A stretch of 64,000 bases of DNA from Candidatus Woesearchaeota archaeon (GTDB lineage: Archaea > Nanobdellota > Nanobdellia > Woesearchaeales > GW2011-AR15): assembly GCA_016928835.1 (NCBI GenBank), contig JAFGJW010000003.1:1-64000 (forward strand). The letters run 5' to 3'. How positions within the stretch are numbered: the stretch's first letter is position 1; every line of letters starts with the position of its first letter. The position numbers are program-made. Positions 39,001 to 45,000 of the stretch are shown piece after piece.

Positions 39001-42000
39001 TCTGTAAGTTATCTTCTTGTCTTTGGACAAGTCTTCCGGCCTTCTCAAGCTCCTTTTTTCTTGTTTCAAGTAAAATAAATTTTGACTCAATCTCTTTGTA
39101 CTTATTTTTTAGTTCCTCTTTTGCTTTCTGAATTGTCTCTTCTCTCAATAGAACATCGTGCTTAAGTTTTTTCACTTCAGACTCATTTTTCTGTAATGAT
39201 GATTCTAAATTCTCTTTCTCGCTACTAAGGCTTTTCAGTTTTGATTTATAGCTTGATATATCCTTATTTTGGTTCTCAATAACCTTCTCCTTTTCATTTA
39301 TATCTAATCTTAACTGTCTCATCACCTTCGATCTTTTTGCCAGAGTATTGCTAAAAACACTATTACTTTGTTCTAAAGCAGTATGTTTGATCTTTAAAGC
39401 ATCAAGCTCTCTTAGAGTGTTGTCTAGCGAATGCTGAACACCTTTTAGCTCATGTTGGAGCCCCCTTACTTCCAGCAGAGACTCTTTGTATTTTTCTGCA
39501 TCTGTCTTTACTACTGTTTTTTTCTTTTCTCTTGGTTTCTTTTCTGCTCTTGACTTTTCTTTTTGTTGAACAACTTTTAGTTTCAGTGGAACTAGTGTTT
39601 TCTTGGCTGTTTGTTTTTCTGCTCTGTCCAGTCTGGCTGCATACTTTTTCTTCTCTGTTTCAAGAACCGCTCCTATTTCACCAGGGTCAATCTCAGTCTT
39701 TTTGTGAAGTTCATCCAAGAAATAAAGCCATTCGCTATGCTCCCAGTTGCCTTTATGCTGCTTAACAAATTTTCTGCAGAGATTAATAATTTTTGATTTT
39801 GATATTGTCGGCTTCTGAAAGAATCTCTTTTTCTCATCTTCAAGCAAATTGCCGAGCTCTTGCTCTGCAAGGTCAATACCTTGCTCTCTGACTGTCCCTA
39901 TAAAAGAAAGCCAGTCCTGATGCTGCCACTCCCCATTATGTGTGTGGACAAAATCTCTTGCTAGACTAAGAAGTTTTAACCTCTTTTTCATAAATTCCCC
40001 CTGATAACATTATTGTTATTAAGTCCTATATAAATAATTTTGTTATTATTCTGGAATAATAACTAACTGAATTTCGTCTGCAACTATCTCCTTTTCTTTT
40101 TGAACTCTTCCCGTTATTTTAACCACATTTCCTACTGAAAAGTCTGAATTGTTATCAAACACTATCACTTCCAGCAAGCTTGGCTGTTCAATCTCAAGAA
40201 TTACATAAGATGGCCTTTTTTCAATATCAATAATTTTTCCAGTAACCTTGATCTGATTGCCAATCTCCTCCTTTGTTATCTTTTCTATTGTTGTATCTGT
40301 AACCTCAATTTTATGCGATAGGACTGCTAATATAACAAGTCCAGTTATGGATGTTAGCAATGCAATAATCAGCAATTGGTTCTCTTTCATAGCATTGAAA
40401 ATAGTCTGCTCCTATAAAAATCTTTATTAAATTTTTAGTGATGGCAACCATGAAAAACTTAAACACTAAATTTATATATAATTAGCCTTTTTGAAAATCC
40501 ATGGCCAAAAATAATTTTGCTTTTAAAACTACTAAGGATCTTCCTGTTGCAAAGAAGATTATTGACAGAGTCATCGGCCAAGACAAAGCTGTTGATGTCA
40601 TGAAAAAAGCTGCGCAACAGAGGAGGCATGTTCTATTGATAGGTGAGCCTGGAACAGGAAAATCAATGCTTGGGCTTGCACTAACTGAGATGCTTCCAAA
40701 AGAAAAACTTGTTGATGTAGTTGCCTTTCCAAACCCGAATGATGATCACCAGCCGTTAATAAGGTCAATGCCCGCAGGAAAAGGAAGAGAATATGTTCTT
40801 AAGTCTAAATTGCAGAGCATGTCAATGCTTAAGAACCAGAATTTAATTTTCATTATCTTCCTTATTTTTGGTATTGTGTTTCCCATTTATTACTGGAGAG
40901 CCAATCCCTTGAACTTAGGAGAGACTGCGAATGCTATCATCTTCTCTGCATCTATAGTAACAAGTATCATTGTTCTTGCACTAATAGTGGTTTCTACTAA
41001 CCTTAACAAAAGAATGGAAAAGCAATCGCTCGTGCCAAAGGTTATAGTAGACAATTATGGAAAAAAGCAGGCACCATTTTTTGATGCAACAGGTGCACAT
41101 GCTGGCGCATTGTTAGGAGATGTACTTCATGACCCCTTTCAAACGTTTTCATATATTAGTATATTAAAATGTATACTAAAAGAAAATATAAATGATGAAC
41201 AAATGGCACAAGCACTTGACAAGTACTGGCACAAGCCTTATATACATAAAGAGTTTAAACAGGATAAAAAGTATGAAGCAGTTTTCCTTCCCAAAAATGA
41301 GCTTAACGTAATGGGAGAGAACAATAATCTTGTTGCTCCTGTTGAGGTTTTATCATCAAATAGATATGATTACAAAGGTGAAATGATAAAACTCAAAACA
41401 ACGCAACAAAAAGAATTACTTGTAACTCCAGAACATAAAATTGCAGTTCAAAGACAGGGGGAAACTCAGTATATTGAAGCTTGTAAATTAAAAAAAGGCG
41501 ATACTGTGCTATCTTTAAATGAAAATATGATTATCGATGAACAGGATATAATTGATACTTATGATCTTAGACAACAAGAACAGTGTAGATTATATTATCA
41601 ATATTTAGAAATCAAAAAACAAAATCCAGCATGGGGATATAAGAGAATTGCAAAATCAATGGGGCAAAAAATTGGAAAGACTCGCTGGTGGCATGCTGAA
41701 AAACATATTCCTGTTCCTATTCAAACTGCTAATTGGCTTAAAGAACAGGGATTATTACCTTTAACTTATGATAACCCAAACCTTTCAATAATTGCTAAGA
41801 TTCTCGGAGCAACTTTTGGTGATGGCGGCATATTTGAAAATTTAAATGGAATATTTCTTTCAAGTAAAGAAAAGTGCAATGTAGAAGAATTTGGGTCTGA
41901 TTTGGAGACTATTTTTGGATTGAAAAAAGGAGAAAATTCAAGAATAATTGAGGGCGGAGAGTTTGGTCATTCTTGGTGTTATCAAAACACAAATAGAAAC

Positions 42001-45000
42001 ATTATTAGATTTTTTATTGCTTTAAAATCTCCCGTAGGGAAAAAATCTTCTCAAAATATTATTATTCCAGCATGGATTTATAGGAATAAAAATCTTAAAA
42101 TGGAATTTTTTAGCTCATTGCTTGGAAGCGAAGCAGGAGTGCCTGGTGTACATATTTCAAAAACTCAACTAAATACCTTTGATTTTGCTATTACAGGAGA
42201 AGAAGGTTTAGAAAATAATAGAATCAACTTCCTAGAAAAAATTAAGGACTATCTTAATTCAGTAAATATTAAAACAGGCAAAATCTCAACAAGAATTGTA
42301 AAAACAAAAAAATCAGATAAAGGGTCTATTTTATATCGATTCTTAATTTCAACTGAATTTCAGAATATGATTAATTTTTCTAAAGAATGTAAGCTAAACT
42401 ATTGTAACTATAAAAGAGATAAGTTAACAGAAGTACTTAATGAATTTAGAATCATTAAGAAAGAAAGATATGAATTTATGTTAAAAAACGGGATGGGTGC
42501 AGAAACAGCGATGAAGAAATTGAACTTAACTCCAAAAGCCCTCTATGAAATCCTGAATGACACTGAGTTTATCGTCAAAGAACCAGAGGCGGCTTATACA
42601 TGAAACACATTGCTTGTTGCGGATTAGATTGTTATGAATGCCCGGCATATATTGCGACTCAGGAAGATTCAGATGCTAAAAGAAAAGTAACTGCGGAACT
42701 CTGGACAGAGGAATTTAAAACAGAAATAAAACCAGGGGATGTTAATTGTGATGGATGCAGATCTAATGGTGAAAGATTTAGTCACTGCAATGTATGCGAG
42801 ATAAGGAAATGCGTTTATGAAAAGAATTTGAAAAATTGTGCATTTTGTACAGATTATGCATGTGCAAAATTAAACGATTTTTTTATAATGGCTCCTGAGG
42901 CAAAATCAAATTTGGAAAATATCAGAAAATGAAATTCCAGACAGAAAAAATCACAAAGATTGAAAAGATTCCTTATAAAGGAAAGGTCTATAATGTTACA
43001 ACTGAATCTGGTAATGTTATAGTGAATGGCATATTATGCTCTAATTCAGGAGGTCTTGGCACACCTGCACATGAGAGGGTGGTTGCTGGTATGATTCACA
43101 AAGCTCATATGGGTGTTTTATTTGTTGATGAGATTGCCACATTACACCCTGCCACGCAGCAGGAATTGCTAACAGCTCTGCAAGAGGGAAAATATGCAAT
43201 AACAGGCCAGAGTGAGAGATCAGCAGGAGCTATGGTAAGGACAGAGCCTGTACCATGCAACTTTATCTTGGTTGCAGCTGGCAATTATGAGACAATCAAA
43301 CATATGCACCCTGCACTGCGTTCAAGAATCAGAGGCTATGGTTATGAAGTGTATATGGATGAGACTATACCAGACACTCCGGAAAACAGGAATAAGATTG
43401 CAATATTTGTGGCCCAGGAGATTGAGAAAGATGGAAAGATACCTCATTTCTCAAAGGACGCGGTGGATGAGATAGTCGAGGAAGCAAGAAGAAGAGCAAA
43501 TAGAAAAGGGCATCTAACACTGCGATTGAGGGATTTGGGAGGACTGGTAAGAGCTGCAGGAGATCTTGCCATGGAAGAAAAGAAGAAACTTGTGCAACCT
43601 GAGCATATCACAAAAGCAAAGAAGATTGCACGCACACTTGAGCAGCAGATTGCTGATAAATTCATTGAAAGGAAAAAAGAATATGAAGTAATCCGAACCA
43701 AAGGAATACAAGTTGGCAGAGTTAATGGTCTTGCAGTCATGGGCGGAGGCGCTGCTTTTTCTGGAATCATTTTACCAATTGAGGCAGAGGTCACAGTAGG
43801 AGGGAAAGAAAATAAAGTAGTTGCCACAGGCAAACTGGGTGAGATAGCCCAAGAGGCAATCAAGAATGTAACAGCTATTGTTAAAAGATATTTTGGGGAT
43901 GACATAAAAGAAAAATATGATATCTATGTGCAGTTTTTGCAGACTTATGAAGGTGTTGAAGGAGATTCAGCAAGCATAGCAGTTGCTACAGGTATTATAT
44001 CTGCTTTGAAAAATGTTCCAGTCAAGCAGGATTACGCACTCACTGGAAGTCTTTCTGTTAGGGGGGAAGTTCTACCGGTTGGTGGGGTAACTGCTAAGGT
44101 TGAAGCAGCGATAGAGGCCGGCTTAAAATATGTTATTGTTCCAAAATCTAATATGAAGGATATTATTATTGATAGTGAAAAGCTGAAGAACATAAATATT
44201 ATTCCAGTTGAGACTATATCTGAAGTCCTGGAAAAGGCGCTTGACTGGAAAAGAAGTATTAAGATATTAAATAAGATTAAAAGTTATAGCTAAATTCTCT
44301 TTTTGTTTGTTAATTTAGAGATAAGAATAAGTAGTGCAGTGCAAAGGGTAAGATAACCGAGAAGTATTGTCAATTCACTTATTGAATATCCTAGGGGAAT
44401 ATCAAATATTATTATTTTTCTAAAAATTTTCTGTACAAGGACAAAAGGATTATAATAGGCAATATTGGCTGCAACAAGAGGCATTGTCTCTAATGGAGCA
44501 ATAATATCACTGAAAAGAAAGAAGGTTAATGCAGCAAATGTTGTAAGTAATATGGATGTCTGCTCATTTGAAAAAACAAATGCAAATACCATTCCTATAA
44601 TAATGAAAACAAGTGAGATTAGAATGCATACGAAGATAATTGGCAGTATAATCTGAGTTATTTCTATATTAAACTTGAATTGGGCAACGGCAAGCAATAC
44701 TCCTGTTTGGAATAACACAACAATTAGGTTGGTGATTAAGAGGCCAAGTGTGTAAACTAAATCATTGACAGGCGCAATAAGATTTCTAAGAAATGCCTTT
44801 GAATTCAATTCTGACAGTGTGACTATATTTGCAAAGAGGATACTAATGAAAATGATGATCTGTGCCAGCAGTGAAGGAAAGGCCAGTTTTATATTCTTAA
44901 TATTCCTCATCAAAGGTTCAAATGACTGCAGAATTGGTTTAACCAGTTTTTCTGCCAGTGTTGGATTCAATTTGGAAAGGAGCAATAAATTCCTATCCAA

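What a model noticed while it worked through the whole genome (the two positions that open the first line are those of the whole stretch)
40501..44293. Naturally split intein in LonB protease
The essential membrane protease LonB is encoded in two pieces: g1264 (N-extein + intein N part + LAGLIDADG, ends in a stop) and g1266 (own Met, 39-aa intein C part ending in Asn, then Ser and the rest of Lon), here even with an unrelated gene (DUF3795) between them. This is a conserved natural split-intein family of Nanobdellota, so Lon must be made by protein trans-splicing; the intein starts with Thr here (Cys/Ser/Thr in relatives).
Evidence so far: Intein-free G014 Lon reads DPFQ|SGGLG across both junctions; Pfam intein hit. 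Among 401 genomes, 15 of 15 Woesearchaeales relatives with this intein (one unpublished left out) are split at the same point; most of 8 from another order are in three pieces with a free-standing endonuclease (two loci cut short); 2 are contiguous. 223 protein clusters match the I_C-Lon start, nearly all of the 120 listed being about 454 aa; contiguous forms in Micrarchaeota.
(Added by a program. Inside this text positions count along the whole contig: contig position 1 is position 1 of the stretch shown here. "Call 12" and the like, gene names such as g00115 and contig names such as C1 are that model's own, and its searches are not shown. The text may have been shortened before it was handed on; [...] marks where a part breaks off. 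The agent that wrote the report below was given it as the finding of a first reader that could run no searches.)

Follow-up and report, generated by a model that had tools for sequence, protein, structure and literature searches.

The report
Mobile split intein in Lon protease
This small archaeon encodes its Lon protease as two separate genes, with an unrelated gene between them, that are likely stitched together after translation by a split self-splicing element; the element appears to jump between species, even into Asgard archaea, while staying split, and it starts with threonine, which an older survey had never seen in natural inteins.

Summary
Confirmed. The genome's only LonB is two genes. 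One holds N-extein, intein N-part and a LAGLIDADG endonuclease, then a stop. The other holds a 39-aa intein C-part and the rest of Lon. A DUF3795 gene sits between them, overlapping both by ATGA. A separately assembled contig matches base for base.

In 115 of 115 endonuclease-bearing loci with both junctions the intein is split. Splice residues are strictly kept, so trans-splicing is likely (untested).

(1) The split cassette is mobile. Intein and extein trees conflict (AU p 0.01 to 7e-7). Two Asgard Heimdallarchaeum genomes carry different split alleles in about 98% identical Asgard LonB exteins.
(2) The gap collects passenger genes.
(3) Residue 1 is Ser/Thr/Cys = 72/40/36 of 148 alleles. Thr1 was unobserved in a 2009 survey.
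(4) Ser/Thr1 pairs with Tyr at the NX position (110 of 112) and Cys1 never does (0 of 36), opposite to the published His rule.

Corrections: it is not confined to Nanobdellota, and '15 of 15' is 16 of 17. The scan found the split before on other DNA. No paper found.

The parts
40501..41142 (+). LonB N-extein, residues 1-214: Walker A (40642-40665), two hydrophobic segments (about residues 109-134 and 142-169), ends at Gln214 inside pore loop-1
   Evidence: pore loop-1 = TonLonB 209-232 (PMC9569914 passages)
41143..41535 (+). Intein N-part (splicing domain): Thr1 (41143-41145), NX-position Tyr75 (protein Tyr289), block B Thr95 and His98 (protein Thr309, His312)
41536..41790 (+). Linker and helical accessory domain (helix-turn-helix-like by predicted secondary structure; function inferred)
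   Evidence: secondary structure; conserved; no Pfam name
41791..42420 (+). LAGLIDADG homing endonuclease fused in frame to the intein N-part; acidic residues Asp441 and Glu544
   Evidence: fold match to 7qss, 1dq3, I-DmoI; Asp 94 of 94, Glu/Asp 93 of 94 alleles
42421..42603 (+). C-terminal helices of the N-half; stop TGA at 42601-42603
42600..42932 (+). Passenger gene, DUF3795 (110 aa, Cys-rich), overlapping both neighbours by ATGA, with ATGAAA at its start and again at the next gene's start
   Evidence: single copy in the genome; DUF3795 in 7 of 41 related genomes
42929..43045 (+). Intein C-part, 39 aa from its own Met: F4 Asn, penultimate Ser, terminal Asn39
43046..44293 (+). LonB C-extein from Ser+1: Walker B (43115-43135), lid domain, protease domain with Ser347/Lys390 dyad

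Best explanation
LonB is encoded as two genes broken inside an intein, and the two proteins likely pair through their intein halves and trans-splice into one protease, while the endonuclease kept on the N-half likely copies the whole split cassette, passenger gene included, into intein-free lonB alleles. Inferred steps: the three genes are translated from one message, each restart coupled to the previous stop by ATGA. The membrane-anchored N-half binds the soluble C-half and the HINT fold closes. The Thr1 hydroxyl makes the first oxyester, Ser+1 takes over the N-extein, and Asn39 cyclises, joining Gln214 to Ser40 and restoring pore loop-1. The released intein N-part with its LAGLIDADG domain cuts empty alleles. 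Because both halves lie side by side, repair copies N-part, stop, passenger and C-part as one unit.
For: Shown: the split here and in 115 of 115 endonuclease-bearing loci with both junctions (81 two-piece, 34 three-piece; 103 distinct; 45 of 160 loci lacked one or both junctions). Stops are TGA, TAA or TAG and gaps run from -17 to 657 nt in two-piece loci. Position 1 is only Ser, Thr or Cys in 148 of 148 alleles and block B His is 148 of 148. Terminal Asn and Ser+1 are 117 of 117 with a pattern that does not presuppose them. Position 1 is the only one of 18 variable S/T/C-rich columns that never takes another residue. Position 1 and the NX position co-vary over 10 independent pairs on well-supported branches: on average 8.8 the same way, 0 opposite, sign test p about 0.004. 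pN is well below pS in splicing core, endonuclease and C-part. Complex model of the two halves: score 0.83, best control 0.00; the mark was reached by 116 of 157 solved and 2 of 215 mismatched pairs; runs agree in at least 92% of contacts; partner pLDDT at least 81. The pass may come from likeness to solved inteins. Mobility: split alleles are scattered among intein-free sister Lons (29 changes on a 102-row extein tree), and four reciprocal AU tests reject congruence (p 0.005, 0.008, 0.011, 7e-7). Two Heimdallarchaeum genomes have Asgard-type exteins 87-97% identical in DNA around inteins only 53-61% identical, with the drop at the junctions. Intein GC is 0.29-0.31 against 0.39-0.41 in the exteins.
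Against: No splicing, cleavage or expression was measured. The family lacks the penultimate His (Lys 99, Ser 15, Ala 2, Arg 1 of 117) and has Asn at F4; the C-part alignment shows no conserved His. Block A after residue 2 is hypervariable (mean column identity 0.35 vs 0.73 in the core; pN near pS in 3 of 5 pairs). Ser/Thr1 alleles have Tyr where known Ser1 inteins need His (PMC10189870). One of 80 species-genome loci (L166) has a deletion across the C-junction and another (L198) a break in the N-part; these may be assembly errors or dead alleles. The AU groups were chosen after the trees were seen. G148 has lost its endonuclease yet differs from intein-free G292 by only about 2% in DNA, so loss by recombination also shapes the pattern.
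Confidence: 0.85

Rival explanations
1. The halves are not ligated. The intein serves as a dimerisation clasp or only cleaves itself off at both ends, and the two Lon pieces assemble non-covalently.
For: His residues that assist the last step are missing and block A is loose. Fractured enzymes that assemble without an intein exist (Aeh1 NrdA, cited in PMC2677866). The break lies in a loop that is partly disordered in the solved LonB (PMC9569914).
Against: A clasp would not need a nucleophile at position 1, His at B10, terminal Asn and Ser+1, all kept without exception. An attached 486-aa intein in pore loop-1 of every subunit would likely block the channel (inference). Double cleavage without ligation is not excluded by these data.
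Confidence: 0.08
2. One contiguous precursor is made by recoding (frameshift, readthrough, bypass) or by RNA splicing, and the intein splices in cis.
For: 53 of 81 two-piece loci have the same ATGA overlap.
Against: The others have gaps of many sizes and frames, three different stops, and whole genes in between (here 325 nt; up to 4.2 kb in G120). The C-part begins with ATG exactly 39 codons before the junction in 79 of 81 two-piece loci. No Rfam match at 39000-46000.
Confidence: 0.03
3. The split intein is old and inherited vertically; its patchiness comes from repeated loss, not from homing in the split state.
For: Order-level groups of alleles hold together (two-piece vs three-piece). Decayed and re-fused alleles exist (G148, G170, G390, P0041).
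Against: AU tests. Only 2 of 51 Asgard genomes with a LonB match, of 201 searched, carry it, their inteins nest among Woesearchaeota alleles, and their exteins nest in Asgard LonB. The endonuclease is under purifying selection.
Confidence: 0.08
4. Assembly error or pseudogene.
For: The genome is a metagenome assembly; the only run that holds the locus may be its source.
Against: Identical separately assembled contig; same break in over 100 distinct alleles, including two complete Asgard chromosomes; intact Lon motifs; no second LonB.
Confidence: 0.01

Closest known systems
Fractured genes (Dassa et al. 2009, PMC2677866)
   Same: Host enzyme broken by a split intein at the usual endonuclease site, halves in one locus, overlaps with the downstream start. 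The 34 three-piece loci have this layout.
   Different: There a free-standing GIY-YIG or Vsr-like gene lies between the halves, hosts are DNA synthesis and repair enzymes, and loci are mostly phage. Here the endonuclease is LAGLIDADG, stays fused to the N-half in this window, is homologous to the in-frame one of contiguous alleles (G335, G387), and the host is a cellular protease.
Nanoarchaeum equitans PolB split intein and cyanobacterial DnaE split inteins
   Same: Cellular housekeeping gene, long N-part and short basic C-part; the profile of the C-part touches NEQ528 (5oxx, E 0.045). Neq Pol is cysteine-less (PMC10189870).
   Different: Those halves lie in separate loci (PMC2677866) and lack an endonuclease (PMC4760082 defines split inteins as mini-inteins), and all known inteins at the cyanobacterial DnaE site are split. 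This one keeps an endonuclease, is patchy and moves between taxa.
Contiguous LonB inteins of Euryarchaeota (e.g. Pyrococcus abyssi Lon intein)
   Same: Same host protein; 10 LonB inteins listed in Euryarchaeota (PMC4760082 table). That the Pab intein uses the same site and also lacks the penultimate His is recalled, not tested.
   Different: They splice in cis from one gene. No direct sequence comparison was made here.
Ser1/Ser+1 (cysteine-less) inteins with the NX histidine: PolB16, Mja TFIIB, Psp Pol-1 (Pasch et al. 2023, PMC10189870)
   Same: Oxyester-type junctions (Ser or Thr at 1, Ser at +1); Arg/Lys before the NX position (144 of 148).
   Different: NX residue is Tyr in 110 of 112 Ser/Thr1 alleles; His or Gln occurs with Cys1 (34 of 36), the reverse of the published rule. 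The paper notes single Tyr and Asn exceptions.
Mja KlbA intein (class 2, Ala1; PDB 2jmz)
   Same: Best sequence match among solved structures (E 3e-15 with the profile).
   Different: KlbA starts with Ala; none of 148 alleles here does.

Membership tests
Archaeal LonB (TIGR00764) | AAA+ module with membrane segments, Ser-Lys protease domain | tested here: met
   the two exteins cover profile 3-196 and 195-606
Class 1 intein | Cys/Ser/Thr at position 1, block B Thr and His, terminal Asn, Cys/Ser/Thr at +1 | tested here: met
   Thr215, Thr309, His312, Asn39, Ser40; family tallies
Class 1 intein | Usual helpers: penultimate His, F13 His, F4 Asp | tested here: not met
   Ser, no His, Asn; PMC4031507 calls F4 and F13 less conserved and cites splicing without the penultimate His
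Class 1 intein | HINT fold | tested here: met
   PF14890 sub-threshold on both halves; profile hits to solved inteins; fold search; complex model
Class 1 intein | Splicing activity | not testable with these tools
   needs a bench assay
Naturally split intein | Two genes, break between blocks B and F, C-part with own start, recurrence in relatives | tested here: met
Fractured gene (Dassa 2009) | Free-standing endonuclease gene between the halves | tested here: not met
   fused to the N-half in this window and 81 loci; free-standing in 34 related loci
Class 2 intein (KlbA) | No nucleophile at position 1 | tested here: not met
   148 of 148 Ser/Thr/Cys
Class 3 intein | Trp B12, Cys F4, Thr G5 triplet | tested here: not met
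   Ile, Asn, Cys here; F4 Asn in 117 of 117
Ser1 subgroup with NX motif | His at the NX position after Arg/Lys | tested here: not met
   Tyr289; position set by profile alignment to the Arg-His of Mja TFIIB intein 5o9i; the paper's supplementary alignment was not seen
LAGLIDADG homing endonuclease | Two motifs with acidic residues; fold | tested here: met
   no Pfam hit
LAGLIDADG homing endonuclease | Cuts the intein-free allele | not testable with these tools
   inferred from tree conflict only

The most novel reading that the evidence does not exclude
A selfish element that fractures a cellular housekeeping protease and homes in the fractured state, across families and across phyla (Woesearchaeota to Asgard archaea), ferrying unrelated passenger genes in its gap. 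It splices with natural Thr1 chemistry assisted by a Tyr at the NX position, and it offers over a hundred natural split inteins with no cysteine at either junction, plus every stage of the cycle: contiguous, two-piece, three-piece, endonuclease lost, re-fused.
Probability: 0.6. Interest if true: 0.82.

Novelty: new variant of a known kind. Interest (0 to 1): 0.72.

Why it matters
Split inteins are usually treated as immobile end points of intein decay, or as phage oddities with a separate endonuclease gene. Here one stays mobile in cells and shows a second route to gene fracture: a break after the in-frame endonuclease. Thr1 had only been shown to work as an engineered mutant as of 2009, and cysteine-less split inteins are described as very rare and sought after for protein engineering. 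The family makes both questions directly testable with short, E. coli-expressible halves, and gives a marker of DNA exchange between small symbiotic archaea and Asgard archaea.

Tried and rejected
No RNA holder listed for the locus; two RNA runs of the same study laid no contigs: no evidence either way. Promoter and terminator scan uninformative (sigma-70 model; 20 vs 13.4 sites). Charge complementarity: C-parts are mostly basic but N-parts vary from -7 to +20, no clean pattern. Independent-pair tests on 32, 61 and 94 rows were underpowered (p 1, 0.25, 0.0625); only the 128-row set passed. The raw Fisher values (7e-10, 2e-32) overstate because of kinship. The deep profile search of 1.84 billion proteins was not obtained, so the far range of contiguous relatives is open. 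A search for longer proteins with the C-part found 1 of 2 candidates, weak evidence. A second, unrelated contiguous intein (Cys1, His-Asn end) at the same site in G030, G103, G285, G132 was kept out of the family counts. A DUF3795-like motif in L166 was a chance antisense match. Titles reading 'uncultured Methanosarcinales' were not taken as taxonomy. Labels Parvarchaeota, Iainarchaeum and Micrarchaeota (L139, L154, L195) were not verified; two of these loci are cut short.
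Full report
OBSERVATION. The LonB profile TIGR00764 is covered by residues 7-215 of the first protein (profile 3-196) and 38-450 of the third (195-606). Against solved T. onnurineus LonB the first half ends at Gln217 and the second resumes at Ser218, inside pore loop-1, residues 209-232 (PMC9569914, passages). So Walker A and the membrane segments are on one gene; Walker B, lid and protease dyad are on the other. There is no second full LonB in the genome (20 contigs, 95% complete). 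A separately assembled contig of run X1, which may be the source sample, matches 39500-43967 with no difference. The middle gene is DUF3795, single copy, sporadic in relatives (7 of 41). It overlaps both neighbours by ATGA.

THE INTEIN. N-part: Thr1, block B Thr95/His98, a helical accessory region, a LAGLIDADG domain, stop. The AlphaFold model (mean pLDDT 80, first six residues under 50) matches TliVMA intein, PI-PfuI and I-DmoI. Pfam gives only sub-threshold intein hits and no LAGLIDADG hit. C-part: 39 aa from its own Met, ending Asn, then Ser. A complex model of the two halves scores 0.83 against a best control of 0.00; the mark was reached by 116 of 157 solved and 2 of 215 mismatched pairs, runs agree in at least 92% of contacts, partner pLDDT at least 81. 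Solved inteins resemble it, so the pass shows likeness, not binding.

DISTRIBUTION. Of 401 genomes of the phylum, 353 gave a LonB match and 39 ranked as carrying a C-part at this site (209 lower matches were not listed). Opened, these were 32 split (three with the N-half partly or wholly off the contig), 3 contiguous of the same family (G335, G387, mini-intein G390) and 4 with an unrelated contiguous intein. These counts include this genome and unpublished G377; in the window's order 16 of 17 are split without them. All 64 intein-free Lons opened are continuous across the site. A wider scan keyed on endonuclease motifs gave 160 loci: 81 two-piece, 34 three-piece, 0 contiguous, 45 lacking one or both junctions; 103 of the 115 are distinct. 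That scan cannot see mini-inteins or distant contiguous alleles. Of 35 protein clusters hit by the N-part, 34 lack the C-extein (a few are partial) and one is the G390 protein.

IS IT SPLICING? Among 148 distinct N-parts (90% de-duplication, G377 and one garbled protein left out) residue 1 is Ser 72, Thr 40, Cys 36 and nothing else; block B His is invariant. Of 18 variable columns rich in Ser/Thr/Cys, only column 1 never takes another residue (94 two-piece alleles). Terminal Asn and Ser+1 are 117 of 117. pN is far below pS in the splicing core, endonuclease and C-part in five pairs. Against: no penultimate His, Asn at F4, no conserved His in the C-part; residues 2-40 are hypervariable and look mosaic; L166 and L198 are broken. 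I put ligation by trans-splicing at 0.85. It is inferred, not shown.

UNUSUAL CHEMISTRY. [quoted passage not shown] Here 40 of 148 alleles have it, with at least 14 changes to or from Thr on a 128-row tree. Pasch et al. report a His at the NX position as the signature of Ser1 inteins and call cysteine-less split inteins very rare (PMC10189870, passages; supplementary alignment not seen). By profile alignment to the Mja TFIIB intein that position is Tyr289 here. It is Tyr in 110 of 112 Ser/Thr1 alleles and in 0 of 36 Cys1 alleles (His 21, Gln 13, Arg 2). With the column masked, 10 independent pairs on well-supported branches go the same way 8.8 times on average and never the other way, p about 0.004 (20 of 148 rows dropped, mostly for lacking a full endonuclease). 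Three smaller sets were underpowered. Co-variation of the first residue with an active-site neighbour is what a working catalytic centre would show.

MOBILITY. The extein tree follows host families, and split alleles sit beside intein-free sisters (29 changes, 102 rows). On 19 matched taxa, clades well supported in the extein tree are rejected for the intein (p 0.005, 0.008) and the reverse (p 0.011, 7e-7) (groups chosen after seeing the trees). The complete chromosomes of Ca. Heimdallarchaeum endolithica (CP084167) and aukensis (CP084166) carry the same two-piece layout in a syntenic region. Their exteins nest in Asgard LonB (support 99; one clade with the other split carriers rejected, p 2e-11), their inteins nest among Woesearchaeota alleles, and DNA identity between the two falls from 87-97% in the exteins to 53-61% in the intein at both junctions. 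Only these 2 of 51 LonB-positive genomes, of 201 searched in that phylum, have it. The simplest reading is two invasions, or one invasion and a replacement, by already split cassettes. The endonuclease keeps both acidic residues. Cutting was not tested.

PASSENGERS AND LIFE CYCLE. The gap is an ATGA overlap in 53 of 81 two-piece loci. Others hold genes: DUF3795 here, a recurring 75-aa unknown ORF in at least seven distinct loci with the same overlap at its start, and up to 4.2 kb in three-piece loci. The states seen are contiguous with endonuclease (G335, G387), two-piece, three-piece, endonuclease decayed or lost (G148, G170, G168, G119) and contiguous mini-inteins that look re-fused (G390; P0041 keeps the C-part's Met in frame). 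Two changes of layout suffice on the tree, but the root is assumed, so the order is inferred. Since the free-standing endonuclease is homologous to the in-frame one, a break after an existing endonuclease fits better than invasion by a foreign gene, the model of Dassa et al. (PMC2677866, passages and section 16).

WHAT IS KNOWN. Split inteins, fractured genes and contiguous LonB inteins are known (PMC4031507, PMC4760082, PMC8966425, PMC7664689, bioRxiv 2025.01.02.630785: passages only). Searches listed no paper on a split Lon intein, on inteins in Heimdallarchaeum, or on natural Thr1 inteins. The library omits most subscription papers and intein databases, and I read no supplements, so prior mention is possible. 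I recall a recent survey reporting split MCM inteins in Nanohaloarchaeota; it did not appear. LonB is essential in H. volcanii (PMC4343526, passages); that is extrapolated here. This scan reported the split before on other DNA; word searches for Thr1 with homing and for Asgard returned nothing.

VERDICT. Real, a new variant of a known kind: a naturally split class 1 intein in LonB that likely trans-splices and likely still homes. Interest 0.72.

Noticed in passing
G000:C19:19984-22659 (L316:85-2760), outside the window: Release factor aRF1 carries a contiguous intein inserted right after its catalytic GGQ motif. I did not check whether this site is described.
   Followed up: partly
G000:C9:46481-50134 and C11:27079-29763: Contiguous inteins in frames that look like PEP synthase and a nucleotide-sugar dehydrogenase (named from the sequence by eye).
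   Followed up: no
L034 (G030), L071 (G103), L073 (G285), L074 (G132): A second, unrelated contiguous intein (Cys1, His-Asn end, about 428 aa) occupies the same LonB site, so two intein lineages compete for it.
   Followed up: partly
L085 (G299), L105 (G384), L080 (G094), L081 (G081), L074 (G132): An additional in-frame insert of about 470-600 aa near Walker A in the N-half, probably a second intein.
   Followed up: no
L174:5443-5673, L135:5449-5676 and L161, L169, L183, L185, L244: The same unknown basic 75-aa ORF recurs between the intein halves; no Pfam hit; atlas cluster of 144 hypothetical proteins.
   Followed up: partly
L083 (G148) and L090 (G292): Split allele with a dead endonuclease versus an intein-free allele, about 98% identical in DNA, dipping to 92-93% in the 60 nt on each side of the site: a possible recent conversion tract (small numbers).
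   Followed up: partly
window 41146-41260 and relatives: Intein residues 2-40 look mosaic: G009 resembles G317 there although the rest of their inteins fall in different clades.
   Followed up: partly
L166:5690-5830: Deletion across the C-junction that removes the intein end and about 18 Lon residues; assembly error or dead allele.
   Followed up: partly
window 34469-39991, minus strand: Two very long Lys/Glu-rich coiled-coil-like ORFs (682 and 1150 aa) upstream of the locus.
   Followed up: no
window 47006-47617: A CheC-like gene with no flanking chemotaxis genes among the ORFs listed.
   Followed up: no
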